Below the pieces are notes generated by a model. That model made no database searches. It worked only from the letters and a program-made list of their open reading frames with translations, and had not been told where the DNA came from. Below, in pieces: positions 3,019 to 63,306 of a stretch of DNA of 64,000 bases. The position numbers and the translations under genes were made by a program. Position 1 is the first letter of the stretch. Each line of letters opens with the position of its first letter. Source of the DNA: Octopus vulgaris (taxonomy: Eukaryota); NCBI GenBank assembly GCA_951406725.2, contig OX597815.1:36332001-36396000 (forward strand), in the 5' to 3' direction.

Positions 3019-3529
3019 GCTTAAAATAATTTTGAAAATAATGAAGAATTCAGTGAAGTAACTCTCATTATTAAGTTATTAGCAGGGAATTTCGATGGAA
3101 GTTTTTAATTTAGATCACTTTAAAACTGGAAGTTTATATCATAGAACCTGAGGCAGTTTCAGGCAGGTTGGTGTCAAAAGGGTTAAATCATACCCTATAG
3201 TATTTTTTAAGCACGCATGCACACACAACACACACACACACAGAAGACAATGTAGTTCTAGACATATAAAAGAGATGGGGTAGATATGGCTTTTGATTAC
3301 AGGGCTGCTCCATATGGACCAACAGGAAGGTAATCAGCACCATCTACTCTCTTTCACAGACACGTGCACAAACACACACACACGTTTCCAAACACCTTTG
3401 TTATTTCATTGTAGGCCTGTTTCACTGTTACTCATGTGACAGACAGACAGAAATTATTATAATTACATTATTAATTGGTGCATGACAAAATGAAGTGGAC
3501 AAAATGCCTTGTCATATTTAGTTGGGTCC

Positions 3530-7262: not shown

Positions 7263-8890
7263 TGTGCTTTTGTTTAATTGCTTGAGTTAATTTTGGACAG
7301 ATCATCATTATCAACACCATCATCATTAAATGTCAACTTTTCCATGTTTACATGGGTCATATGGAATTTGTTGAGGCAGATATTTCTATGACTGGATACC
7401 CTTCCTGTCACCAACTTTCATCTGATTCCAAACAAGGAAATATTTCCTATGGACAGACACGTTTTATATAGAAGGCTGGAAATGAACAATAAACAATATT
7501 ACTTGCATGAGATTGATGCTTATTTACAACTACAAGATGATATCAAGACAAGGGCACACATAAATACACATATATATATATTCAGATGATAGGCCACTTT
7601 CAGTTCTCATCAACCAAATTCACTCATAAAGCTTTGGTTGGCCCCAGGCTACAGCAGAAGTTACTTGCCCAAGCTGCCACACAGTGGGACTGAACCCGAG
7701 ACCAAGCTTCTTAATCACATGGTCATGTGGTATGCATTCCTGGGTATTTTTTCACAGTCATTCTTTTAATTTATAATGTCACTCTCTGTATATTTCTGAA
7801 GTCCTCTTTACTTCTTTATTCAGTCAAGTTCTGTAGAAAGTTGAACAAGAAAAGGTCAGCAACCTTTTTGAATTTGCAAGATGAATGACATATTAAGCAA
7901 TGGCAAGTGGGCCTGATAAAAAGTATAAAAAATTTGAAATATGCCAATTCATTGAAGTATATTTAGTTATGCTTTTCACTAAATCAATGAATGATGCATA
8001 CTACAAAATCATTTTTGCTTTGTAAAGTATACTAAATAATAATTAAAAAACTTAATTCAATTGCACATGGTTTTAATCAGTTATCTACTGAATCTATTAA
8101 AAACATTCAAAAAACAATTAGAGCACAAAAAGTATGAACATGGTGAACTGAATGGAGGTTAATTATGTATAAAAAAGAAAATGATATAATTTAATTCAAT
8201 CAAAGGACCAATGTAGAATTTGATGCTGCCATGTGTTGCTTGAAAGTTCACTTTGAAATGCTTAGAATAAAGGGTAAAAATCATTTAAGGCCAGATAAGA
8301 ATTATAATAGTTGCATACAAGCCTATCAAAATCCCTTTGCAGGCAAGAGTTGACTCACAGGCTGTAGGAAGCCTACCTTTTATTTACTAAACCTTGAAGT
8401 GGTCCAATAAGACAAAGCATATTGATAGTAGGCACCACACTACTCAAGATTAGACCTATTTCCATCACATTCTATTTTTAATTGTTAGTAATTAAAATTT
8501 CAAGACTATCCCCCACCATTTCCTTTTACCAGGATTAGTAATTTAGATAATGACTATTCTCATACAGGTGTAACTTCTTGGCTTGCTTACATCTAGAATG
8601 CTAGTTCCACTCGTCATCAATATGGTACTAAAGGTTATTTAATGAATATTTAAGAGTAATGTGAAGGGATATGCAATGTTTTACATACATACTTCATGAT
8701 TACAAACTGAAATCTCACTGAGCACCTTATGATATGATGCTTGTTGGTCTAGAGGATAGAGTGACAGTCTGAACACACTGTGCTGTCACAATGTGTCCAG
8801 ACTGATAGGTTACCAGGTAGTAGTCTGGGAATACTGTAACAAGTTGAATGATGGAGTGAATACAGTAAAAGAAAATCCAGTGGTAGTGGT

Positions 8891-13430: not shown

Positions 13431-15243
13431 CCTAGTGTTAGGAAGATGGTTTCATTGTAAAGTCAATGCTAGCATGAAACAATGGGATGAGCAGCCAGAT
13501 GACGAAAGGGAATATGATATATGCATATCTATATATGCACAAATACATACATACACATGTAAGAATGCATCTAATTACACATATATCATCATCATCATCA
13601 TTGTTTAACGTCCAATTTCCATGCTGGCATGGGTTGGACGGTTTGACTGAGAACTAGCAAGCCAGCAGGCTGCACCAGGTTACAATCTGATCTGGCAAGG
13701 TTTCTACAGCTGGATACCATTGCTAATGCCAACCACTCTGAGAGTGTAGTGGGTGCTTTTTATGTGCCACTGACACAGGGTGGCTCAGGCATTGACCATG
13801 CTTGAATGGTTCTTTTTACATGCCACAGGCACAGGAGCCAGTCAGGCTGGCAGGAGCATATAAAAAATTGAGTGTGTACATGTGCGAAAATAGGTACACA
13901 CACACACATAAGGTGCAGGCATGGTTGTGTGTTTAAATAGTTAACTTGCCAACTAAATAGTTTTGGGTTCAGTCCCAATGTATGCACCATGTGCAAGTGT
14001 TTTCTACTAAAGCCTTGAGTAGATTTGGTAGATGGAAACTGAAGGAAGCCCATTACTGCGTGTGTGTGTGTATGCATGCATATTTGTGTTCCCTTGTTTT
14101 GGCATGCGTAAGCAAGTCACTCTCACACAAGTGGTGTCATTCATTTTGTGTCTTTCATGAAAAAATATCAGGTGGGGCATCTGGCGGTAAAAAATGTGCT
14201 CAGCAAATTCTGTTGATTTATATACAAGTATGGAAAAGTGGATGTGATGATGATGATGATAATATAATGCTTTATTGGGGCTGCAAAACTTCCCAAACTG
14301 TTACTCAGTGTTTCACATAACTGATCATCAAACTTCTGCCTGATGATCAGTTATGTGAAACAGGTATGTGAAACAGTTTGTGAAGCGTTTTAGTTTCAAC
14401 AAAATCCTGATATTCCAGTAGTATTTTCTTCACCTTGTTTTGCACCTATGAATTCACAATGTTTATATGCGCATGCACACACACTTGTATAGATAGAGAG
14501 AGAGAGAGAGAGAGAAGGAAGCTGACAGAGAGAGTGAGTTAGTGTCAGAGGCTTTCTGCAATAGAAATTATGCAATACCTTGAACCTAGTCAATTAACTG
14601 ATTAATAGAGAGCAGCAAACACAAACATATCAAGATAGGGTAAAACATGGAAAGTTGAGAGAAGGAAAGGGAAGGAAGGAGGGAGGGAGAAAGAGAGATT
14701 TTGGATAGATGTCAGTTATAACAAAATGAAAGAATAAAGCTGGTGTGTATGTGTGTGTGTATTATATGTAAGAAAGGGAGAGAGAGAGAATATGTATACG
14801 TATGTGCATGTGTGTGTTTATGTACACTGGATTTGGTGTTCAAATCTGTGTTTCATATGTTTATGTTGGTGTGTATACAAATTGGGTAAAGGTGTCTGTT
14901 TCTTAAATTGTGTGTGTGTGTGTGTGTGTATGTATACATATATGTATGTGTGTGTCTATGTATGTGTGTGTGTATTGATGCTAGATTGTATTTAGTTGAT
15001 ACCTGGGGTCTCTTCTCATACTGTGCAAATAATTAACAAAGCAAACATGTTCTTTAACCAATTCAGAAAAACATGCCACTGTTAAATGGGGGTGAAAACC
15101 TGAGTATAGCAACTGCAGCTAATCAAATTGTGTGTGTGTGTACGTGTGTGTGAGAGAGAGAGAGAGAGAGAAAGAGAAAGAAGATATGCAGGTATGTATG
15201 CACATATAATCAATATGTACATATACACATGCATGTGTGTAAG

Positions 15244-18495: not shown

Positions 18496-19523
18496 GTATA
18501 TTCTCTTTGAGTGAAATGCAGCAACCATTTGTAGCAGATAGTTGTATCTGCTACAAATAGTAGTCAAATCGTTTTGATGTGTATTTTTCCATGCTGGTAA
18601 TTATGTGTATACAGCAATGTGATGTATATAGCATTTAGTGAAGTAATTAAGGTAATGATAGTAATAGAAATCACTGAGGTGACAGCTTCTATAGTATTTA
18701 CAGTTGTAGAAACACAGTACCCTAGCATAAATACTCAAAACAAAACAGATAACAATATTTCCTGTCATTGATTCGTTAACTTTAAGATAAACTCTAAACC
18801 TAAGACTAATCTTAGTTCAACTTACACTTAAACCCTAATCTTTTACTAATTCCATACAAGCATTTACAGTAACCCCTAATATATATATAATCAAGCTGAA
18901 CTATGGAAGCTGCAGTCAACATTTGCATTAATGAAAATTGAAAGCAACTTTCAGAAAATAACTTGCTAAACTCCAATAAATTGTATTTTAATTACTAACA
19001 ATTATTTAATTATTTCCTTGAGGCAGAAGAGAAATAAATTAATTTTGTTCATGTATCTGGCATTAATTAAAAAAATAGGCTAATTTAATGAACGTTTTCT
19101 ACAGAGAGACAAAGAGACAGAAGGAGATCATTCATCTTCCAACTCAAAGTCTGTAGTTTTATAGGAGTTAATGGCTTGTTGTATTTATTACATGCCATTA
19201 ATAAGAGAGAGTGTGTAAGTGCCTGCACATAAGTACACGAAAAGTCTTGTGCAGAGACTGAGGAAACATAGCATGATTAATTAACTGAATTATGGACTAA
19301 TCCAAAATTCCTGCAAGAACATAAGGGCCAGTTCTGTAGCATTAAGGAGGTAAAATACTGTTTATATGTAATGTAAGCAATCTAACTAATGAGTGCACAA
19401 TCTTGCTCATAAGAAAGTTAATGATATCAAACAAGGTCGAAGTAGCCACACTTCATTGGTTCAGTTCATATGTTTTTTCACTGGCTGAATCACACTGTAT
19501 TATAGTAAAATTAAATATATATA

Positions 19524-19765
19524 CAATTTCAGCGTAGAAGGTATTTATAAGCCATTTAAGAAACATACAAAAACTGTTAGATTCACTTCAACATTTAAAT
19601 TTAATTTGTCAAAATATTTTCGTTGCTTTGAGACCGCGACCAGTTCACTGACAAAATTCCGTGCTGCATATAAATGGCTTATAAACACCTTCCACACTGC
19701 AATTGTTTTCATTCTAGCACATGATGATCTCAGATCAGGTCACTTGCTATGCAAGTACATCTCTG
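19524..19765. mobile_element. Non-autonomous Penelope-like insertion (inverted pLTR + truncated sense copy) with hammerhead motif on minus strand (19605-19655)
   Basis: 12-bp TSD TAAATATATATA. Same family as 20753-21084 and 53769-53984. Confidence 0.75.
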
Positions 19766-20752
19766 TAAATATATATATTTTTATACTAAATCATCTAAAT
19801 ATATTTATACAGGGTATTATATAATTATTGTGGTATATTCATGTGTAAGTTATATTATCAAATGAGAAATACCGAACAACCATAAATAAAATAATGTAAC
19901 ATTGGTATAAAACAAATCTGACAGACCATTGGAGGTCTAAATTGGAATACTTCCACTGTTGAATATTTTAGTAATTAGTTACAGTGAATGGCTCCTGAGA
20001 GTTTTGCAGATTCTTTGGAGACTTGTAAAACAGATGGAGCTGATGTTCAATTGGAATTTAAGCATATTATTGATGTTTTTTGTAGAAAAGACAAATATAA
20101 GAGAGAAAATTCTAGATTTCTTGTTTTAGGACCGATCAAAGTGTTTAGAGTGAAGTTGGTGGAGGGAGACATTAAGGATGACAAGAAGAAGATAAGTGAA
20201 TAGGAAAGTGTATCAGAGTGATCAGAAGTACGGCTGTGAATCAGTGGTTGTAAGATACTGATAAAGGAATCTTAGCCAATCAATCAGTTAGCATTTAGGG
20301 AGGTAGAGAATGTAATTGACAATGTTTGTGCCTGTAGTAGCTGTACCATCCCAGATATATGAGCTGGTAAATTCTTTCCTGCAGAAATATCTTACAGTAA
20401 GTTAAATTTTCTTCTGAAGACTCAAGTTTTGTTTTTCTCTCTTATTTCTTTCTTTTTTTTCTATTTTGCTTTTTCTCTCTGCCTTGTTTCTTTGTCTCTC
20501 TTTGTCTTTCTCTGCCCTTAGCTTTCTCTCTACTTCTATCAAAATACTTAGTAAATGCCCCACCACTTATCCAATTCCAGACATTAATTCTCTGTAACAT
20601 AATGCAATAAAATGTTCCCTGAAGATCCATTACAATTAAACAACCAATTGCACTTGGAAAATCCAATGCAGGGTTCTGAACAACCACAATGGTGGAACAC
20701 AAAGAGGGACAAATGATATAAACTTGTGTTTGTCATAATTTCTCCTAGTTTT

Positions 20753-21084
20753 GCAGCGTGGAAGGTATTTATAAGCCATTTAAGAAACACACAAAAACTG
20801 TTAGATTCACTTCAACATTTAAATTTGTCAAAATATTTTCGTCACTTTGAGACTGCGACCTGTTCAAGATTGTGCACTCATTAGCATGGAGTTTTGTCAG
20901 TGAAGAAGTCGCGGTCTCAAAGCGACGAAAATATTTTGACAAATTAAACTTAAATGTTGAAGTGAATCGAACAGCTTTTGTGTGTTTCTTAAATGGCTTA
21001 CAAATACCTTCCATGCTGCAATTCTTTTTGTTTCAGTACACGATCTCAGATCAGGTCACTTGCTATACAAGTACATCTCCATAA
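20753..21084. mobile_element. Palindromic Penelope-like insertion (~115-bp inverted arms + ~60-nt tail) with hammerhead motif 20893-20943 (+)
   Basis: 12-bp TSD TCTCCTAGTTTT (20741-20752 / 21085-21096). Motif TTTGTCA-GTGAAGA-A-GTCGC-GGTCTCAAA-GCGAC-GAAA-ATATTT-TGACAAA. Confidence 0.8.
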
Positions 21085-21540
21085 TCTCCTAGTTTTATTT
21101 TTTTAATACCGGACCTCAAAAATATAGTCAAAATTTAAGTTGGATATTTGATTAGAAAAATGATTTATCAAAAATACTATGAACTAGTTCAGAATAAAAG
21201 ATCAAAGCTGCTAAAATAAATGAAATGTGGTAAAGATATAATAAATTTAAGGACAAAAAAACACAAGGTAATGTTTGCAGCGAATTTGAGCATCTGATCC
21301 ATGAATAGGTAGTCCAATAGCAAATGGTCATGACTTTTTTTGTTGTTGCAGATCTCCAAATCTGGTGAGAGGAAAAGGAGAAGTTATCTTCAAATTGGAG
21401 ACTTGAACTTGAATGCCCGCTTGTGCACATGCATATGTGCACACACATACTTTGATTTCATCTTGATATTTTATGAGTCAACAAAAACAGGCATTCATGA
21501 ATTAATTAACTGAACGTAGTTAGTTATTATTAATAAAATT

Positions 21541-24873: not shown

Positions 24874-25961
24874 AATAATGATAATAATAATGCTTTCTAC
24901 TATAGTCACAAGACCTGAAATTTTGGGGGAAGGTTAAGTTGATTACATCAACTACAGTGCATAACTGGTATTTATTTCATTGACCCTAAAAGGATGAAAG
25001 GCAAAGTCAACCTCGGTGGATTTTCAACTCAGAACATAAGGACAGACAAAATGCCACTAAGCATTTTGCCAGCATGGTAATGATTCTGCCAGTTTGCCAT
25101 CTTAATAATAATCCTTTCTAATATAGGCACAAGGCCTGAATTTTCTGGGGAGGGGGACAATCGATAATAATAATAATAATAACAATAACAACAATAACTG
25201 TTTAAAATTTTCGTATCATCATCATTGAGTCTTAAAACAGATACAGGCCAGTTACTCAGTTTCTTTGGCACATAAGCGACTGAGATGAGATCATAATACT
25301 CCCCCTGGACAGGATACCAGCCCATTTCAGGACTGATGATTTACAGCTGGGTGGGCTGGAGGAATGTGAAATTAAGTGTTTTGCTCAAGAACACAACAAA
25401 CCATGTGAACCAGAAACTGAAACCACAATGTTGCAATTGTGAGTTCAACACCTTAGCAACTTGGAGACACACTTTCACAAATTTTGGCACAAAGCCTACA
25501 TTTTTAAGGGAAAGGGGTTAATTGATTACATTGACCTCAGTAATTAACTAGTACTGCATTTTAACAACATCTAAAAAGATGAAAGACAAAGTTGACCTTG
25601 GTAGAAGTTGAACTCAGAACACAAAGCGTCAGATGAAATGCTGCTAAGTATTTGTCCAATGTGCTAACGATTCAGCCAGCTTACTGCCTGAATCATAATA
25701 ATAATAATGAAGATTACAATAATAATCCGTTCTATTATAAGCACAAGGCCTGAAATTTGTAGAGAAGAGGGGTTAGTTGATTACATCAACCCCAATGCTC
25801 AACTGGTACTTATTCCATCAACCTTAAAAAGAGAAAGGCAAAGTTGACCTCAGCACCATTTGAACTCAGAATGTAAAGATTCACGAAAGCATTTTGTTTG
25901 GTGTGCTAACAGTTCTGCCAACTTGCCACCTTACAATAATAACAATAATAATAATAATAAT

Positions 25962-31625: not shown

Positions 31626-34600
31626 AACGCCAGCATTTATCATATTCATCAAAGCACTAAGTTACAGAACCTTAACAAAAAGCAGTCTTTCAAAGAATGT
31701 CAATGTAAAGCAGACATGAAAGTAGATACACAAAGGTACACAGTCTCCATTTATTAATTCCAGTAAGAAGTTTAAGAAGACACCCAAAATATCATGAAGT
31801 GGGACAAAATCCGAAATCATGTGGCTGTGAAGCAAACTTCTTAATAACATATATTTCTTTATTGCCCACAAGGGGTTAAACATAGAAGGGACAAACAAGG
31901 ACAGACAAACGGATTAAGTCAATTACATCGACCCCAGTGCGTAACTGTTACTTTATTTATCGACCCCGAAAGGATGAAAGGCAAAGTCGACCTCGGCGGA
32001 ATTTGAACTCACAACGTAACGGCAGACGAAATTCGGCTACGCGTTTCGCCCGGCGTGCTAATGTTTCTGCTAGCTCGCCGCCTTTTTAATAATATAGCTA
32101 TAACTGCATAAATGTTATAGCCTCAAGTCATCCATTTAGTTCAAACTACCTCAATCTTTTTGTTTTATCATAGCAATGACACAAGGAATCAACCAACAAT
32201 GATAGGAGATTGCCAAAATGTAAATGTGCTGCTGTTTTGGTTTATCCTTGTTTAATTTAGAGAGGAGAGGCAAATGCTCATGGTAGTTTTGACTTTAAGA
32301 GTCCCTCCTAGTGTGAGGAATTTATGTATAATAATGCCCTTAATATAAATAAATATATTTAAAAGGAATAATTAATAAATTTTTCTCTTATGAGGTTTTT
32401 TTATGCTAACTACTAGATAAATTCTTATAAAGATTTTATCCTATTTTTCAATTGTATTTAGCAGTTCCTTTGCAACTGTTTATTAGGTCAGAATACACAA
32501 GTTTGTAGATGAAGTTAATGATACTGCATCTGTCTGTCTTCATCTTATAAACCCTACTATATCTCAAAGCATCACATTAAACGATTTGTTCGATTCTTTC
32601 TCTCTCAACACTGCCACTCACCTTGAAACTTTTCCCTTGTCCGAATTTTCCTTAAAGACATTAACCTTCAGAATTCTAAGCTGAACCACAAAGAACTACA
32701 TTCTCACCTCCACCAAATAGTTTTAAAAAATATATTATTTACGAGATATGAAATGAAGGCAATAATCAGAGGAGACTTACAAGGAATGGAAACTTACAAA
32801 AAAAACCCAGATATAGGTAATATACTGGTAGTATATTGGATGAAATATAAGCAAAATACGAAGCAAAGGCATAGATATTTAAATGACTCAGTATGACTGG
32901 GTACTGCGTGGATTTAGTTTTTATACAGGGAAAATAATGTTAGTCAGCATGGCCTAGGGAACGATGTGGTCTGGAATTTATCACTTCCATACCATAACCA
33001 GGGCCGTATATTATTTTTTGACCGATTTCTTTAGTTCGGTCAAACTTGCGGTGGATTCCAGTATTTCACTTTATTTCACCTTTATGGTACACCTGTTGTG
33101 CATTAAATTCAACTGATGATACAGTGATGTGCACAATTCTTCTTTATCAAAATTTTGTTGCATACCCATTTGAATATTAGCTGATGATTCATTTTCTATG
33201 GTGATGTTTAAACAAAATTTTAATATTTTTACCTTTTGCTCAATTTACCTGGATTTACCTGTAATTAAAGTCACTTTGAGACAAAAGTTATGCAATAGAA
33301 TTGATTAAGAACCCTTTCTTTAATTATGTTCCAAATATCACATTAATATGTTGATAAGTAAAAAAAGTTACAGTTATTTAATGAAACAAGCCTAGATTGA
33401 TGATTATTTTAGAATTTAATTGAAACTCATGAGGGGTGTATTTTGGTCAGAAATATAGTAACGAAAGGGTTAAGGCTAACCGCTAATCTGAGAACTTTCT
33501 TTTAATAAAGAAATTATATGTAATCTGTTGTTATTGTTGGTTAGCCTCGGGTCTGTCTTGGCTGACAAGGCCAATGATCGAAGGTATTCCATCCATTTTT
33601 ACAAGCACAGTACATTCAATACCATATTCTCTAATGTGTCCTAAGACAGTAGAGTGTAATTTGAAGAAAATTTGGCAGTTATTTCTATGAAATTAAATTA
33701 CTCCTTTGTGGTTCTTTCACTGACTCCTTAGTTGCAATAATGAGTTGTAGTGATAATTAGTCTTAAGATGTTATCATTTAGCTATATTTCAGCCCAAAGT
33801 TGAGCAGAATAATGACCTTTGCTTTAAAAGTCAGCAAAGTGAGTGTTGAGATTTGGCTACTATTTCTAGCAGGTGAAACGACCACATAGAAGCTTTCTCA
33901 TTGGTTCATATATTGGTATGCAGCACACTGAGCTAAAATGTATGCGTTATTGGAATAATGTCGTGGTAAGCTGGTAACAGAAGAGTATATTGTGACATGC
34001 AACATATGTAGTAGTGCATGTATAGAGAAGTGACAAAATTAAAAATGGTAAAATTATAAATAATGATGTGCACACCATCTTCACTGTAAATGTGAACTAT
34101 CATTTATCTTCAAAGTAATGCTACTCTACGTCCTACAGATTATATTGTGTTACTTCAGTTTCTGCTGGCTTTTCTTATATCTAAGGATAGTGATATGTAT
34201 TAACCATTATGACAAGGGAACTGCCTTAAGTACTTTCTAGGCAGACATTCAAATATCCTATATGTATCTGAACGTGGCCGATGCCAGCGCCGCCTTGACT
34301 GGCTTCTGTGCCGGTGGCACGTTAAAAGCACCAACCGATCGTGGCCGATGCCAGACTCCCCTGGCACCTGTGCTGGTGGCACGTAAAAAGCACCCACTAC
34401 ACTTGCGGAGTGGTTGGCGTTAGGAAGGGCATCCAGCTGTAGAAACACTGCCAGATCAGACTGGAGCATGGTGCAGCCCCTGGCTTCCCAGACCCCGGTC
34501 GAACCGTCCAACCCGTGCTAGCGCGGAAAACGGACGTTAAACGATGATAATGTAGTTGTAAAGTTAAGTGATTTGTCAATGCTTTATCAAAATCACCACC

Positions 34601-39038: not shown

Positions 39039-40606
39039 ACAAATAAATGAAAGAGAGAGAGGGGGTGATGTGCACGTGCACATGCTTATACATATTCCTA
39101 GAGTGCCCTTCCCCACCTTCTCACCTTCTGAACCACCATATTCCAGCACTAGTAAACCTTCTCTACCTTGCAGCTGTAAAAACAAGATAATTCATTTAGT
39201 TTTAACATTCTGTCTTTTCATAAAAGCATAAAGCCTCAAATGGTCCTCTGACCAATTGACAGTTCAGTATAGATGGGGATGGTGGCAGTGATGGTGGCAG
39301 TGATGGTGGTGGTGGTAATGGCAGTAATGGTGGTGGTGGTAGTGTGGAATTTGAATGATGACTAACTAAATTACAGCAAGTGTTTGTTTGACTCAACAAA
39401 AATCTTATTGAACACAAAGCAACAAGATATTGTCTGAAAGCTGATATCTTTCTAATGATATATACAGATGTTATCATAAGGGATTGCCTTGTTTGTATTA
39501 TTATTAGCATCATCATCATCAATGTCATAAACATCATCATCTTAACAGCTACTATTACCAATACTACCTATTTCTTTATTACCCACAAGGGGCTAAACAT
39601 AGAGGAGACAAACAAGGACAGACATAGGTATTAAGTCGATTATATCGACTCCAGTGCGTAACTGGTACTTAATTTATTGACCCCGAAAGGATGAAAGGCA
39701 AAGTCGACCTCGGCGGAATTTGAACTCAGAATGTAATGGCAGATGAAATACCGCTAAGCATTTTGCCCGGCGTGCTAACGATTCTGCCAGCTCGCCGCCC
39801 TAACCAGCTCACTGCCCTTAACCCCTACCACAACCATATGGTGGTTTAATCAGTTAGAAATAGCAGGTATACCTCCTTCAAATCACACCCTGTTATCCTA
39901 AAAAAACGGAAGGGTACAATAGACAATGTTTTCCCTAGTATACAAAATAGCAAGATAGTAATGACCAGAATGTCTGTGACTATAAGTCAGATCAATCAAA
40001 ACTGATATAAGACTAAACAACAAGCTGACAATCATTATCATCAATGCAACCAACTTTATTGCTGGTATCTTCATCACAGCCATCACTACTATCATCAACA
40101 GTATCACCATTATCATCATCATTAAATCACCCCCACAACTCGCCATGACCATCAGAGACAATTCAACAAATGAGTCTCTACATGATCATGTAATATACTA
40201 GAAATAGCAGCCAAACCATCCTTTTCTTTAAAAAAACAAGAAAAAAAAAACAAGACAGAATGTATAATATAGTCTAGATATATGTTTGAAAACTAAAACT
40301 GGATGGTCATGGTAGAAACGTCTTTAATCCTAGGTCTGTTCAATGAGAGTTATCCTGAAGTTAAACAATAACAACAATAATCATTATCATCACTAGCACC
40401 AGCATCACAATTATAATTATCATTGTTGTCATCATCATACAAAATAACCATCAACAGCATCGCAATCTTTTTAATTATCATTGCTCTCATCTAATATTAG
40501 ATTCTTGATCAATTATTGAACTGATGCAGATATACTTCTCAGTCAGTACTATATTGTCACTGCTATTTTTCATTCCATCTTCAAGGATCTATATAATAAG
40601 AAAATA

Positions 40607-40988
40607 GGCAATGGCCCAGTGGTTAGGGCAGCGGACTCGCAGTCATAGGATCGCAGTTTCGATTCCCAGACCGGGCGTTGTGAGTGTTTATTGAGCGAAA
40701 ACACCTAAAAGCTCCACGAGGCTCCGGCAGGGGATGGTGGTGATCCCTGCTGTACTCTTTCACCACAACTTTCCCTCACTCTTACTTCCTGTTTCTGTTG
40801 TACCTGTATTTCAAGGGGTCGGCCTTGTCACTCTCTGTGTCACGCTGAATATCCCCGAGAACTACGTTAAGGGTGCACGTGTCTGTGGAGTGCTCAGCCT
40901 CTTACACGTTAATTTCACGAGCAGGCTGTTCCGTTGATTCGGATCAACCGGAACCCTCATCGTCGTAACCGATGGAGTGTTTCCATCC
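40607..40988 (+). mobile_element. tRNA-Arg-like SINE family C
   Basis: 12-bp TSD AATAAGAAAATA (40595-40606 / 40989-41000), A box TGGCCCAGTGG, B box GTTTCGATTCC. Closely similar to 54624-55011. Confidence 0.92.
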
Positions 40989-44960: not shown

Positions 44961-47723
44961 CAGCAGCAGTAGGAGAAAGAGGAGAAGAAGAAAAGCAACT
45001 GTTCAAATGTCTTTAACCTGAGAGGACCTGCAAAGATTATAAGCATGTCCTTCTTCTTCCCTCCATTAACTTAGTAGAAAAAAAAATCAAAAATTAATAG
45101 TGCTTTACATCAACAAAAATCTACAACAAAAACTCAGACCACCATAAACTCAAAAGAAAAAAAACTATACAAATATAAACCAAAAGCCTGTATATAGAAT
45201 TTTCCCAGTTCTAAAGACCACCAATTTCCCACTTCCATTATTTTGGGAGAATTAAGAGAGTGGAGGAAGAAGTTCTTTTTAATATTTAATTTTACCAAGA
45301 GGGCAGTGAGCTGATAATATTTGAAACCAATATTTAATTGCACAAAGATAGCAAGCTGGCAGAATCATTAGGATGCCAAGCTAAATGCTGAGTGGCATTT
45401 CATCTGTCTTTACGCTTTGAGTTGCCAAAATTTGAAACCTCCTTTGTGTTTTTAAGTTAAAAAATCCTGCCAAGGATGATTGCTCTCCATCCTTTTGGGA
45501 TCGACACAACAAATACTGGTTATGTCCTCAATATAATCAACTCTCCAAAACTTATGGCCATGTGCCAATGTTAGAAATAATACTGTTAAATCTTTATTTG
45601 ATAAATTCTAAAGATATTTCAGATTTGTATTAACTATTTTCATGAGAGATTTAATCTGAGATTGTATGCTGAAACAGAAACATCACGGTAGAATTATGAC
45701 AGTGATTTAAAACACATATGTTATTATATTAAGCTTGGTTTTATCTGTATTATTACAACATAATACATATCAATGCCTTTCATTGTACATTTACAACATG
45801 CTGGCCATTGATACTCTATTCTAGTGAATATGGTGGAATATATAATAATATCACAAAATAAAATAAGTGAATAATATAATGGTTTATATGTCTCAACACT
45901 GTTTGCAATTGTTTTTAACATATTTTATATTAAATATTTCTATATAAGTGTGTGTGTGTGTGTGTGTGTAATAAGAAAACATACCTTCTCTGATGATGTG
46001 TAGTTTGTTGACACAGTGGTGGTCATAATGCATTACATACATAGTATGCTTATGTGTGTACTTATGTTTTCCTCATTATCATCCTCATAGTTTGAATGTC
46101 GACTTTTCCATGTTTGCACGGGCCAGATGAAATTTGATGAGGCAGATTTTCTAAGGCCAGATGTCCTTGTCACCAACAAACACATGTAAAGTTAATATTT
46201 CTTTTCTATCATCCTGTCACTCTTCTCACCCAGTCAGGTAACAAAGATGAGCCTGAGGCAACCTTTCTGGTGCCAATGAATGAATGAGACACTACATAAG
46301 GAATCCCTTTTTTTCATTCCAGGGACAAGATAATCATTCTAACAGTGTTGATGTCATAATAAAATGCATCCAGTAAACACTGTAAAGTGACTGGCAATTG
46401 AAAGGGCAACTAGCCATAAAAGCTATGCCAAAAATTCTAAAGTACAAGCAGTGTGTGGCCCCCAATTCATGTAGGAGAGCAGTAACTCAAGAGATCTAAC
46501 TCAAACTGTAGCAACCCATCCAATCCATACCAGCATGGAAAATCAGGAGTAAAATGATATTTATGTGTGTATGTGTATGCATTATGCATGTGTGCATGTG
46601 CATTAGATATACATTCATACATAACTCTATGAAATGATGCCATAGCTTTGCATTTTTTCTTTCACTGCTTATGTGGATATAGTGGGGGAAAACATTTATT
46701 TATAATGTACCTATTTGCATGCAAGCAGTTCTAAAAATTTTGACAAATTTCAATACTGTATGAGCAATTGATTTTACAGTTGGTTTCTCCACGACTGGAA
46801 CCTGTTTGTTAGTCATTCAGTAAGTATCGAAAACTGCAGTATGTTAGCATGTTACAAAGAAAAGAAATACCTTGTGTGCAGAGCCCTTCCTTAAATATCA
46901 ATATTCTTTCTTTGTAGTATACACACCTCAATATTTTGATATTTTTACTGAATTGACACTTACAAATATGGATCACCACCGATAAACATTTTGAATTCTT
47001 GAGTTTATATTTAGCTGACTAAAGTAAATTGTACATCTTTCTCAAGGGTACGACAAAATGTCGTAAGTGTGATGTGAATTAATGACCATAAGGATGCTAG
47101 TACTTATTTTAGTACTTTCATTTCCACAAAAATATTTACAAAGGATAATTGTAAATATTTGTAATCTTAATTATCCTACACTACATTTAAAAGTTGTGCA
47201 AGGAAAAAACAATAGAATATCAGGCAAATAGATCCAGGGTAAGTAGCAGTCAAAAAAGAAGCAGAAATAAAAGAAGAGAAAACCAATTCAATTTACACTT
47301 AAAGACATATAAAAAAGAATGGTATCAACTAAAGGAAAAATTATCTTAGTTCTCTAATTTAATAAATTTGGGGAAAACGTAACTGAAAATACAAAGTTAT
47401 CATGAACTTATTCACATATTGACCTTAGTCAAACAATGAAAGAAAGAAATAAGTTTTCTTCACAGTCAGAAACATAATCAGATAAAACATAGAAATGTGA
47501 GAAGCCAATGAAGGAAACAAGAGCTAGACTGCCTGTTGTGTAATTTAAATGCTTTCTAGAGGTGGTAGTTAGTGTTGTATAGCAACAGTGATTGCCATCC
47601 CTTTTCTTTTTTCAATTACAGTGTATCTAGGACTACACTGTTCATGTGTCTTGTAGTAAGTAACATTGTAGAGTTTGATTTAAAGGTAATTTGCTTACTA
47701 TTTCAAACGGGACGCAGATACCT

Positions 47724-53360: not shown

Positions 53361-53768
53361 TATTTATTTCTTTACCTCAGATATATTATTAGTATCTACT
53401 AATAGTTTCATTTCATACAATACTATTTATGTTTATGTCAAACTAACTTAGGTTTTATATATACATATACAGGCACAGGTAATGGTTGTGTGGTTAAGTT
53501 CACTTCCCAACTATGTGATTGTAGGTTAAGTCCCACTATGGGTAAGTGTCTTGTATTACAAAACACTTGCCCATAGTGTGCTGTAGTACATGGTATACTA
53601 TTAGCCCTGGGTTGATCAAAGCCTTGTGAGTGGATTTGATAGGCAGAAGCTGAAAGAAGACTATTGTGCATGAAAAAGTGAATGTTAAATAATGATGACA
53701 TACTATAACACTCTATGAACATTTGATAACTTGTACATCATATATTACTCCCTAAACACATTATAGTA

Positions 53769-53984
53769 GGTGTTTATAAGCCATTTAAGAAACACACTAA
53801 AACTGTTAGATTCACTTCAACATTTAAATTTGATTTGCCAAAATATTTTCATTGCTTTGAGATCGTGACCTGTTCACTGACAAAACTCTGTGCTGCTTAT
53901 AAACACCTTCCACGCTGCAATTGTTTTCGTTCCAGCACACGATCTCAGATCAGGTCACTTGCTATGCAAGTACATCTCTGTAAT
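53769..53984. mobile_element. Third copy of the Penelope-like inverted-pLTR family; minus-strand hammerhead core GTGAACA at 53871-53877
   Basis: 11-bp TSD ACATTATAGTA (53758-53768 / 53985-53995). Aligns with 19524-19765. Confidence 0.78.
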
Positions 53985-54623
53985 ACATTATAGTATATTT
54001 ATTATATACTCCTTAAATACATACTAAATTACTCTGGAAACAATTGGTAATATATGGGAATTGGTTGCTATTATTTCCAACTATGTTAGCAGGTATAAAT
54101 TAAACTGGGTATCTTGATTAAGAATGTTAGTATAATGTCTGTAGTGCAACATGAACTCAGGAATGACAAGTTATGAATTCTTGGTAACAAGCCATGTGTT
54201 AGCATCTAAGCAGTACAGTTATTGAATCAATGCAATGGTGTGTGCGCGTGTGTGTTGTAGGCATGGTTGTGTGGTTAAGGAATTCATGCAATCATGAAGG
54301 ACCAAGTTTGAACCCCCTATGTGACATCATGTGCAACTGTTTTCAACCACAGACCTGGGATGGCCCCAGCCTTGTGAATGGAATTGGGGTAGATGGAATC
54401 TAAGTAGAAACTTAGATGAAATGTATCTGCAACTCAAAGGTCTTGAGATCAAACTTCACTGCTTACCCCCAACACAGCTTTAGTTTTATATGCGATATGT
54501 GTATGCTCTTCTATTAGTTTTTTTTTTTAATGGTTTAAAACAATAAAGATACTAAACACTGGATATGCCTTGTATATCATAAATGAAGTCAGCAACAAGA
54601 CATCCTCAAGTAGAGGAAGATAT

Positions 54624-55011
54624 GGATGGAAGCACTCTGTCGGTTACGACGACAAGGGTTTCGGTTAATCCGATCAACGGAACAGTCTGCTCGTGAAATT
54701 AACGTGTAAGTGGCTGAGCACTCCACAGACACGTGTACCCTTAACGTAGTTCTTGGGGATATTCAGCGTGACACAGAGAGTGACAAGGCCGGCCCCTTGA
54801 AATACAGGTACAACAGAAACAGGAAGTAAGAGTGAGAGAAAGTTGTGGTGAAAGAGTACAGCAGGGATCACCACCATCCCCTGCCGGAGCCTCATGGAGC
54901 TTTAGGTGTTTTCGCTCAATAAACACTCACAACGCCCGGTCTGGGAATCGAAACCGCGATCCTACGACCGCGAGTCCGCTGCCCTAACCACTGGGCCATT
55001 GCGCCTCCACA
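54624..55011 (-). mobile_element. tRNA-Arg-like SINE family C
   Basis: 12-bp TSD AGAGGAAGATAT (54612-54623 / 55012-55023). Reverse complement of 40607-40988. Confidence 0.92.
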
Positions 55012-60377: not shown

Positions 60378-60580
60378 GTATTTGATTTATACCTGCGTTA
60401 AACTTCATTTCATCATCATCATCGTTTAATGTCCGCCTTCCATGCTAGCATGGGTTGGATGGTTCAACTGGGGTCTGGCAAGCTCGAGGGCTGCACCAGG
60501 CCAGTCAGATCTGGCAGTGTTTCTACAGCTGGATGCCCTTCCTGATGCCAACCACTCCGAGAGTGTAGTGGGTGATTTTA

Positions 60581-60838
60581 TGTGCCACCGACACAGGTGC
60601 CAGACGAGGCTGGCAGATGGCCACGCTCGGATGGTGTTTTTATGTGCCACCGACACAGGTGCCAGACGAGGCTGGCAGATGGCCACGCTCGGATGGTGTT
60701 TTTATGTGCCACCGACACAGGTGCCAGACGAGGCTGGCGAACGGCCACGCTCGGATGGTGTTTGTTACATGCCCTCAGCACGGAGGCCAGTCGATGCGGT
60801 ACTGGCTACGGTCACGTTCGGATGGTTTTCTTATGTGC
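60581..60838. repeat. 62-bp tandem repeat (3 near-identical + 1 diverged unit) inside an RTE 3' UTR
   Basis: TGTGCCACCGACACAGGTGCCAGACGAGGCTGGC..GGCCACGCTCGGATGGTGTTT starts at 60581, 60643 and 60705. Confidence 0.92.
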
Positions 60839-61817: not shown

Positions 61818-63306
61818 CTAGCTGATGTGCCTGGTAATACCTGGAAAAGCAGGGATTATCCCTTGGTTCTTATTTCTTTATTACCCACTAGGGGCGATTA
61901 TCCCTTGGTTCTGTTCTCATAATTGCTTTGCTAATTCAATAACAACAAAACAAAGTATCGCCCTTAAAACGATTTTTGTGCATTTACAGAGAATACCGAA
62001 CTGTCTTCCACAGGATCTTGTTTTTAGAAATACCCAATAAGTTATGAATACCCAAATTGTGAAGTCCATTATGTAATAACCAAATGTGGAATTTCCTTGA
62101 CCTCCCATAGCTTGCACTCGGGTGTCCAGGTCAAGTAATGCCTCATTGTAAATGGTGTTACTCAATGTGGCAATTTCCACTGAGGTTTGCCTTTGAATCC
62201 TTTGTAAGATGTCCTCTGCCATGCTGGGTTTTTGGATCGCCCAAAGCTTGTGAGGTTCACGAAAGCCACATGTCATCAACATAACAGAAAATAGCTGGTG
62301 CAGTTGACTTAGTGCTCTGCTGACTGCTGTTTCCTCCAGTGTCTGGTCCCAGTAAGCATTGTCCCCCAGTAGCCTATGTTTGGTGCAGGCTTCTCTATAG
62401 GTCTTGCAGACTTCACATTGTGTCTTCGAAAGTCTGTGAACGATGCAGGACCTCTGACAATGTGTAGCAGTAGATGCAGAAAGAAACACTCCTTACTGAT
62501 TAGGATGCACAGTGTACATCTGCCCAATGACCTGACTTCTGAAGACAGCTTCTTCTTCCCAACCCTCAATGCATGTTCCTTGCTTACATCTGTTCCATCT
62601 GTTGTGTGCCCAGGTATAGTACATGGAGACGTCTACATACAACAATGTTTGGACAAGCAGATCACATTGGCAAAATTTGAAGAAAGCTGTCAAAGTGGTT
62701 TCTAGTAGATTCAGATCTACGTTTCAAGCATTGTCTTCTGTGAAATATACACACTGACCATTTTTAAGATGTACAGATAGATTTTAAGGTGTTCCTACAT
62801 GTAAACAGTGTGTGACCTTTGTGTTGACAGTGTATTTGTCTAAAAGCAGAACAGTTCTTCATACAGTGCTTGTCAATTGGCTGAAGGGGTATGAAAGGCA
62901 TTGTCATTCATGGTATATTTGTGAATAAGTCACCAACCGAAATAAGTGGATCTATTGTTTAGGAAAATACTATTTACTTGTTTAAGGGCCGTACTGGATA
63001 AATTGCAAAAATAACTAACTGTTCAAATACTAAGAAATACACATACTCAATTTGATTTATACGAAGTAATATAGGACAATGAATGGGTTACTTCCCTTCG
63101 ATGTTAAAAAAAATATATGTTATATATAAGGATCCCATCCAGGGGCCCTATTATCGACTTTTTCAACAATCTGAGTATATCATGAAACACGGGTTCTACT
63201 CACGTGTCAAGTTTCATCAAAACCTATAAAACGATGTAGGAGGAGTTGGCTGACAACTCCGCAAACAAACACACCCACAGACAGAATTTCCCATATATGT
63301 AGTAGA
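61818..63306 (-). mobile_element. Internally deleted Helitron with both termini
   Basis: Minus strand begins TC (63306) and ends CTAG (61818) between A and T in TA-rich flanks. RepHel-like peptides LSVHLKNGQCVYF, LLYVDVSMYYTW, IGQMYTVHP, LLLHIVRGPASFTDFR, TYREAC..LLGDNAYWDQTLEE..QLHQLF..MAEDIL. Confidence 0.88.

What the first reader, a model, noticed from the sequence alone, without database searches (positions are those of the whole stretch)
19524..21084. Non-coding retro-element family carrying a hammerhead ribozyme with a swapped G3-C8 core
Seen: three insertions (19524-19765, 20753-21084, 53769-53984), each with its own 11-12 bp TSD. Each is an antisense copy joined to a variably 5'-truncated sense copy that alone has a ~60-nt tail. 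The by-eye consensus is TTTGTCA-GTGAACA-G-GTCGC-GGTCTCAAA-GCGAC-GAAA-ATATTT-TGACAAA: 7-bp stem I, 5-bp stem II and a self-complementary AATATT stem III. G3 and C8 are each present in 3 of the 4 motif copies. Known: hammerheads have a CUGANGA/GAAA core in which C3 pairs with G8, and Penelope-like elements carry minimal hammerheads with palindromic stem III and inverted pLTR arrangements. Inference: GUGAACA is a compensatory swap that keeps the 3-8 pair, so this may be a ribozyme-bearing non-autonomous PLE/retrozyme-like family that standard CUGANGA searches would miss. The cleavage triplet would be UUU, which is atypical.
Basis: partly seen in the sequence, partly recalled or inferred. Interest (0 to 1): 0.78.

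Follow-up and report, generated by a model that had tools for sequence, protein, structure and literature searches.

The report
Retroelement hammerhead with swapped core pair
These short repeats are copies of the front end of a protein-coding Penelope-like jumping gene, and they carry a hammerhead RNA motif whose usual C-G core pair is flipped to G-C in thousands of copies, a natural variant that is predicted, but not shown, to cut itself weakly.

Summary
All three insertions, their target-site duplications and the motif are present.

They are not a separate non-coding family. Each unit is the terminal repeat (pLTR) plus the first ~30 or ~88 bases of the ORF of an autonomous Penelope-like element (RT plus GIY-YIG, Nematis-like by eye) in this genome.

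The motif is a minimal type I hammerhead homologue:
- 5,747 genomic copies read G3-C8.
- The sister family and five relatives from metagenome contigs read C3-G8 at the same place; one reads U3-A8.
- A model built without this family ranks its motif first.
- G3-C8 is the derived state on the RT tree.
- U17 is common in these ribozymes, not atypical.

Copies end at two fixed sites. They usually begin at one site with an extra G (25 G, 0 A), likely the mRNA cap. Only 2 of 120 begin at the cut site, so the templates were mostly uncut.

Cleavage is untested, and all four window motifs are damaged. I found no natural G3-C8 in the papers I could read, but four key papers were not held. The scan noted G3-C8 twice before in other genomes (unchecked). 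Verdict: new variant of a known kind.

The parts
19512..19523 (.). left target-site duplication of insertion 1 (partner 19766-19777)
19524..19673 (-). short-form pLTR copy, ending ~30 nt after the start codon
19605..19655 (-). hammerhead motif, G3-C8, but U at position 9 and one stem II mismatch
   Evidence: rank 2 of 18, E 0.11
19671..19765 (+). 5'-truncated long-form copy: start codon at 19674, first codons of the PLE ORF, ~58-nt tail
19766..19777 (.). right target-site duplication of insertion 1
19386..19405 (-). local genomic 20-mer whose reverse complement fills the inversion junction of insertion 2
20741..20752 (.). left target-site duplication of insertion 2
20753..20866 (-). short-form copy, 5'-truncated at hammerhead position 3
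20865..20884 (+). junction filler, exact reverse complement of 19386-19405
20883..21084 (+). near-complete long-form unit: hammerhead, spacer, start codon at 20993, tail
20893..20943 (+). hammerhead motif; position 3 = 20900 (G), position 8 = 20905 (G in this copy, C in the family); predicted cut after 20936
   Evidence: rank 1 of 18, E 0.017
21085..21096 (.). right target-site duplication of insertion 2
53758..53768 (.). left target-site duplication of insertion 3
53769..53902 (-). pLTR copy holding a decayed G3-C8 motif at 53834-53884
53895..53984 (+). 5'-truncated long-form copy with tail
53985..53995 (.). right target-site duplication of insertion 3

Best explanation
The insertions are short copies of the terminal repeat and first codons of an autonomous Penelope-like retrotransposon, likely reverse-transcribed from the capped 5' end of its mRNA, and the repeat holds a minimal hammerhead with a natural G3-C8 pair that is predicted to cleave only weakly, as a dimer or with the element's protein. 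Shown: identity with the pLTR of an RT plus GIY-YIG element; two fixed 3' ends about 30 and 88 nt after the start codon; one preferred 5' start with an extra G; G3-C8 against C3-G8 in relatives. Inferred: transcription starts at the A of TCAGATG just upstream of the hammerhead; the endonuclease cuts AT-rich DNA with a ~12-bp stagger; RT starts inside the RNA at the two sites and copies back to the cap, which gives the extra G; priming from both target ends and joining of the two cDNAs gives the head-to-head pair in which only one copy has the tail. Inferred: both core bases changed after the split from the sister family, and the pair was kept because the fold still matters. Most copied RNAs were uncut.
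For: Autonomous element: L047 has pLTR 3235-3421, ORF, 3' UTR, pLTR 7496-7682 and an inverted upstream copy. Near-identical RT copies are present on several contigs. Pfam RVT_1 and GIY-YIG each hit 3 of 26 aligned relatives; Atlas neighbours score 0.96-0.98 and several carry RT or GIY-YIG families. Core: 5,747 exact G3-C8 matches against 363 non-C8 and 176 non-G3. Over ten aligned motifs the 3-8 pair is C-G 7, G-C 1, U-A 1, unpaired 1; G10.1-C11.1 is 10 of 10; covariation 0.735 against 0.24 shuffled, 0 of 500. A model built without this family ranks the six intact pLTR motifs first in 69 kb (E 6e-4). The RT tree makes the family sister to the C3-G8 family B (99/97), with C3-G8 carriers outside that pair. 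Subfamily-level non-CpG changes inside the motif: 4 in loop II, 1 wobble-compatible in stem I, 0 in the core, stem II or stem III. Ends in 74 independent loci: 65 long, 40 short, 15 other of 120 copies; 28 of 41 inverted pairs are long plus short, none long plus long; 43 of 120 start in a 9-nt window, 2 at the cut site. Before AGATG, copies that leave the template show G 25 times and A 0 times (118 loci; two of the 25 share upstream sequence). Literature: internal initiation at two sites explains the tail, uncut RNA is the main substrate, and C3G/G8C partly restores cleavage in a PLE hammerhead that needs protein (PMC11167929, parts 1-2 of 4 read).
Against: No cleavage was measured and no RNA run is on record. 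The swap is one evolutionary event. The nine comparison motifs were picked by me as hammerhead-like (4 by scan, 5 by eye) from family B and 26 metagenome loci, so the covariation figures lean towards the structure. Zero changes in 27 core and stem positions is only suggestive against roughly 10% background. G3·G8 copies, which break the pair, are 39 of the first 100 non-C8 matches (hand count), sit on several haplotypes and include an ORF-linked copy. Sister family B has C instead of A at position 9 in 96 of the first 100 of 3,186 matches. Both suggest full ribozyme activity is not needed for spread. The lowest-energy two-molecule fold pairs stem II between molecules (-32.7 kcal/mol) rather than the classical helix III dimer (-28.8); two monomers give about -30.8. 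The sequence just upstream also looks like a splice acceptor. No copy with a fully intact ORF from start to stop was seen among those fetched.
Confidence: 0.6

Rival explanations
1. Same anatomy, but the hammerhead is a catalytically dead or nearly dead relic. The fold may be kept as a protein-binding or regulatory structure, or G3-C8 arose by two neutral steps in successive master copies.
For: Only 2 of 120 copies start at the cut site. Pair-breaking G3·G8 copies exceed what the position-3 control suggests. The young sister family carries C9. Ribozyme mutants did not affect insertion in vitro (PMC11167929). G8C alone lowers the rate 10^5-fold and C3G rescues it only partly (PMC8495972, passage).
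Against: Both changes together restore a Watson-Crick pair. All three subfamilies keep G3-C8 while loop II changes. All other core positions are canonical in the young autonomous copies.
Confidence: 0.27
2. The short units are an independent non-autonomous SINE- or retrozyme-like family with its own masters, cut by the hammerhead into monomers or circles and moved in trans by the PLE protein.
For: Short copies outnumber copies with the ORF start more than 100-fold (6,361 exact 32-mer matches, against 44 candidates). One tandem array of 7-8 units exists (L016/L052). Animal retrozymes are proposed to derive from PLE pLTRs (bioRxiv 10.64898/2026.07.22.740005, part 1 of 5 read).
Against: Each subfamily has an ORF- or UTR-linked counterpart. 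Units start about 60 nt upstream of the cut site, not at it. None of the 74 independent sampled loci was a clean head-to-tail array. The array's units are spaced by TA microsatellite and 6 of its 7 complete units have a broken stem II.
Confidence: 0.08
3. The sharp 5' boundary is a splice acceptor (branch-point-like ACTAAC, pyrimidine tract, YAG), and the extra G comes from an upstream exon, as with the intron that ends at helix I in Drosophila virilis Penelope. This concerns only the origin of the 5' end.
For: The upstream sequence fits an acceptor. The D. virilis precedent is in PMC4209133.
Against: Bases upstream of the G share no consensus across the 25 copies. Three copies that extend 1-4 bases further into the template also carry a G at their first mismatch.
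Confidence: 0.1
4. The motif is a chance hammerhead look-alike.
For: No Rfam hammerhead hit.
Against: Rfam also misses the canonical C3-G8 motifs of L189, L192 and L201. The motif sits in the same position as in the relatives and shares their architecture.
Confidence: 0.02

Closest known systems
Minimal type I hammerheads of metazoan Penelope-like elements (Cervera and de la Peña 2014, PMC4209133; parts 1-2 of 4 and parts 1-2 of 3 of the supplement PDF read)
   Same: Located in the pLTR; extra base between positions 9 and 10.1; G10.1-C11.1; GAAA; short palindromic helix III; U17 frequent.
   Different: G3-C8 pair. None of the 56 motifs in Fig. S3 has G3 (all CUGA or UUGA); the paper reports U3-A8 as its core covariation. 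The bulged base is G here, while the published consensus is H.
Poseidon element of Anolis, PAc (Frangieh et al. 2024, PMC11167929; parts 1-2 of 4 read)
   Same: Tail lies inside the ORF start between two RT initiation sites; AT-rich targets; both strands cut and extended; uncut RNA used as template.
   Different: There G3-C8 is an engineered double mutant, here it is natural. The tail is ~58 nt here against 30-40 nt. The hammerhead lies wholly upstream of the start codon here. Different PLE clade.
Nematis and Neptune clades of endonuclease-bearing PLEs (Craig et al. 2021, PMC8557442; passages and supplement passages read)
   Same: RT with C-terminal GIY-YIG, CX2-5CxxC linker, CCHH residues, partial tandem and inverted pLTRs, tail, (TA)n bias.
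   Different: Short spacer after the CxxC and the C-terminal motif resemble the Nematis rows rather than the Neptune rows, by eye only; no reference sequences were in my tree.
Animal non-LTR retrozymes (bioRxiv 10.64898/2026.07.22.740005, part 1 of 5 read)
   Same: Short, hammerhead-bearing, pLTR-related repeats.
   Different: Retrozymes are tandem arrays with at least two complete motifs; these copies are mostly dispersed singles or inverted pairs with TSDs and contain the ORF start.
Natural U3-A8 hammerheads (Perreault et al. 2011, PMC3088659; section 8 and passages read)
   Same: Natural covariation of the 3-8 pair.
   Different: That section names U3-A8 only.

Membership tests
Endonuclease-bearing Penelope-like element | Single ORF with RT and C-terminal GIY-YIG endonuclease | tested here: met
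   Motifs read; Pfam hits in 3 of 26 relatives each, none in the query itself; Atlas neighbours
Endonuclease-bearing Penelope-like element | pLTRs in partial tandem, inverted 5' copy, optional tail, TSD | tested here: met
Nematis/Neptune clades | CX2-5CxxC linker between RT and endonuclease | tested here: met
   C-X3-C-X2-C; definition
Nematis clade | RT phylogeny with Nematis references | tested here: inconclusive
   By-eye likeness to supplement rows; no references in the tree
Minimal type I hammerhead | Helix I, helix II and palindromic helix III around the core | tested here: met
   (z -3.4 for L047)
Minimal type I hammerhead | U4 G5 A6 N7, A9, G12 A13 A14, A15.1-U16.1, H17 | tested here: met
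   Family majority; not met in the four damaged window copies
Minimal type I hammerhead | Literal C3-G8 (CUGANGA) | tested here: not met
   G3-C8 in 5,747 matches; no C3 with G8 in the 200 listed variants
Minimal type I hammerhead | Watson-Crick pair between positions 3 and 8 | tested here: met
Minimal type I hammerhead | Self-cleavage after H17 | not testable with these tools
   Needs an assay; 2 of 120 genomic copies start at the site
Non-LTR retrozyme | Tandem array of units each with a complete hammerhead | tested here: not met
   None of 74 sampled loci; one array with decayed stem II
Non-LTR retrozyme | Circular monomer RNA | not testable with these tools
   Only assembled contigs of runs guessed to be RNA were available
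Non-autonomous element with its own masters | Diagnostic sequence absent from autonomous copies | tested here: not met
   The three main loop II subfamilies each have an ORF- or UTR-linked copy; sample is small

The most novel reading that the evidence does not exclude
An active natural G3-C8 hammerhead: a young animal retrotransposon lineage flipped the pair that carries the general-acid nucleotide, crossing single-mutant states reported to be inactive, and kept it through three subfamilies and thousands of copies. The same copies give an in vivo record of PLE mobilisation from capped, uncut mRNA primed at two internal sites from both target ends. Hammerhead searches fixed on CUGANGA or UUGANAA would then be missing whole families, including some PLEs reported to lack ribozymes.
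Probability: 0.45. Interest if true: 0.68.

Novelty: new variant of a known kind. Interest (0 to 1): 0.52.

Why it matters
G3-C8 was an engineered rescue mutant in the papers I could read; the natural swap they report is U3-A8. A natural, high-copy case with a close C3-G8 sister family gives a ready test of the open question of what hammerheads do in Penelope-like elements. Compare G3-C8, the naturally occurring G3·G8 and the sister family's C9 core, with and without the element's protein. It also argues for freeing the 3-8 pair in ribozyme descriptors. The fixed ends and extra 5' G support, at genome scale, an internal-initiation model so far shown in vitro for one element.

Tried and rejected
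Rfam: no hammerhead hit on the window stretch, but none on three canonical relatives either, so it is uninformative.

Pfam on the ORF pieces: nothing at cut-off. PDB sequence search: 0 hits.

Sequencing runs: no RNA holder listed. Contigs of runs only guessed to be RNA cover the unit but show no start, strand or level, and no joint into the putative splice acceptor was listed. This is not evidence either way on expression or splicing. Laid runs of four species labels hold the G3-C8 motif (loose-end consensus).

A self-mobile palindromic composite: 10 of 84 loci share one junction, but they also share long flanks, so they are passengers in another repeat and were collapsed. One further duplicate was dropped, giving 74 loci; five overlapping loci had been dropped earlier.

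G3·G8 as the ancestral intermediate: not supported, since it occurs on several haplotypes.

Relatives without a usable motif: of 26 metagenome loci, 8 gave a motif. L191 was unclear and left out (later E 0.009), L196 is degenerate, and the rest lacked the flank or a motif.

Literature: ten searches found no report of a natural G3-C8 hammerhead or of an octopus PLE hammerhead. Lünse et al. 2017, Przybilski and Hammann 2007, Seehafer et al. 2011 and Hammann et al. 2012 were not held; any of them may list such a variant. One supplement file of PMC4209133 could not be searched, and bioRxiv supplements were closed.

Full report
Observation. The three insertions, their 12, 12 and 11 bp target-site duplications and the head-to-head layout are in the sequence as described. 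The window lies in a 2.8-Gb genome. It is probably an octopus: the sister element described below is nearly identical to a protein that NCBI labels Octopus vulgaris. The unit is a large family: 6,361 exact matches to a 32-mer downstream of the motif and 2,068 to the motif with positions 3, 7, 8 and 9 free, with 0 for the reversed controls.

What the unit is. One copy (L016) continued into an open frame. [quoted passage not shown] L047 shows the standard Penelope-like layout: inverted truncated copy, pLTR, ORF, about 1 kb of 3' UTR, second pLTR. The ~200-nt unit is the pLTR plus the first codons; the start codon is at window 20993 and 19674. Ten RT copies are 99-100% identical to the query, so the family is young, though none of the fetched copies had an unbroken ORF from start to stop. 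The linker spacing resembles Nematis more than Neptune rows in the supplement of PMC8557442 (by eye only). Inverted pLTRs, a tail overlapping the ORF start and TSDs are known PLE features (PMC3846280 passages; PMC8557442 passages).

Is the motif a hammerhead homologue? With flanks fixed, G3-C8 occurs 5,747 times, non-C8 363 times and non-G3 176 times; none of the 200 listed variants is C3 with G8. A sister family B in the same genome (61% RT identity) has, at the same place, C3-G8, the same bulged G, a similar stem II and U17, but C at position 9. Of 26 related loci from metagenome contigs, 8 gave a motif in the pLTR. Across ten aligned motifs the 3-8 pair is C-G in 7, G-C in 1, U-A in 1 and unpaired in 1 degenerate case; 84% of cells pair, against 58% shuffled. 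I chose those motifs for looking like hammerheads, so this leans towards the structure. A covariance model built from the nine others ranks six intact pLTR motifs of this family first in 69 kb (E 6e-4) and the four window copies 1st, 2nd, 6th and 7th of 18 hits in the window. The RT tree joins this family to family B (99/97), with C3-G8 carriers outside that pair, so G3-C8 is derived (14 rows, several branches open). Within the family, non-CpG changes at 10% or more fall four times in loop II, once in stem I as a wobble, and never in the core, stem II or stem III; this is suggestive only. U17 is ordinary for this class: 6 of 10 here and 24 of 56 by my count in Fig. S3 of PMC4209133, where none has G3.

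How the copies arise. I sampled the first 100 matches of the downstream 32-mer, so the sample does not depend on the core or the 5' end; 89 loci reduced to 74 independent ones. Of 120 copies, 65 end 83-88 nt and 40 end 29-38 nt after the start codon. Of 41 inverted pairs, 28 join one long to one short copy and none joins two long ones. Family B ends at the homologous two sites. Non-microsatellite TSDs peak at 12 bp (8 of 29, before collapsing). At the 5' side, 43 of 120 copies start within 9 nt around AGATG, 8 extend further upstream and 2 start at the predicted cut. Where a copy starts at AGATG and leaves the template, the base before is G 25 times and A never, whereas all 12 copies with long upstream sequence have C or T. 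The G occurs in all three subfamilies. In several cases it also matches the flank or the partner copy, as expected if a cap-derived C anneals there. I infer a transcription start at this A and copying of the cap; that full-length retrocopies gain a cap-derived G is recalled knowledge from L1. This fits the in vitro PAc results: two internal RT start sites define the tail, both target strands are extended, and uncut RNA is the main template (PMC11167929). Priming from both target ends with junction repair is my inference. The 20-nt filler in insertion 2, copied from 1.46 kb upstream, fits templated end joining.

Does it cut? Not shown. For: a double change restores pairing, the rest of the core is canonical, and C3G/G8C partly rescues cleavage, including in a PLE hammerhead. 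Against: templates were mostly uncut; G3·G8 copies are 39 of the first 100 non-C8 matches and include the plus copy of insertion 2 and an older ORF-linked copy; family B has spread with C9; minimal PLE hammerheads are weak in vitro; and the classical dimer is not the lowest-energy two-molecule fold. The four window copies are damaged and likely inactive.

Novelty. The element type, its layout and pLTR hammerheads are known. The natural G3-C8 pair was not in the ten searches or the papers read, which report U3-A8 as the natural swap, but four relevant papers were not held. Two earlier notes of this scan describe G3-C8 motifs behind Penelope-like RTs in other genomes; I did not check them and do not count them as support. 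Verdict: new variant of a known kind, interest 0.52.

Noticed in passing
window 20865-20884 and 19386-19405: The filler at the inversion junction of insertion 2 is an exact 20-nt reverse complement of genomic DNA 1.46 kb upstream: a locally templated insertion.
   Followed up: yes
L115-L120 (e.g. L118 2263-6198; motif at 2137 and 6725): Sister PLE family B: very young, several open frames of ~1,310 codons with an asparagine-rich insert; hammerhead has C3-G8 but C9 in 96 of the first 100 of 3,186 matches (A9 in 3) and a non-palindromic helix III.
   Followed up: partly
genome-wide; L049 3231-3280; window 20900-20907: C8-to-G copies are more frequent than the mirror change at position 3 and lie on several haplotypes; cause unexplained.
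   Followed up: partly
L016 1954-3171 (also L052): Tandem array of 7-8 short-form units, ~170-190 bp period, spaced by TA runs; retrozyme-like, but 6 of the 7 complete units have a broken stem II.
   Followed up: partly
L066, L069, L143, L144, L146, L163, L178, L181, L184, L186: One inverted pair is carried as a passenger inside a larger, recently amplified unrelated repeat (shared flanks).
   Followed up: partly
L047 7458-7485: Sequence just upstream of the preferred 5' start resembles a splice acceptor with a branch-point-like ACTAAC.
   Followed up: partly
L190 4963-5016; L193 2756-2803: Relatives carry other core variants: U15.1-A16.1 in L190 and U3-A8 in L193.
   Followed up: no
L047 7215-7300: A segment of the 3' UTR is matched at much higher depth than its neighbours in laid contigs and continues into other sequence, suggesting a piece of another repeat.
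   Followed up: no
window 45649-45682 (-): 34-nt, 85% match to the tail region; probably an old fragment of this or a related family.
   Followed up: partly
window 61920-62492 (-): 191-codon open frame that looks like a fragment of another mobile element; not identified.
   Followed up: no
window, e.g. 24934-25070, 31843-32082, 39560-39799, 13589-13784, 60410-60763: Several other dispersed SINE-like repeat families with many copies, and a 231-bp 97% inverted pair at 40708-40938 and 54673-54903.
   Followed up: no
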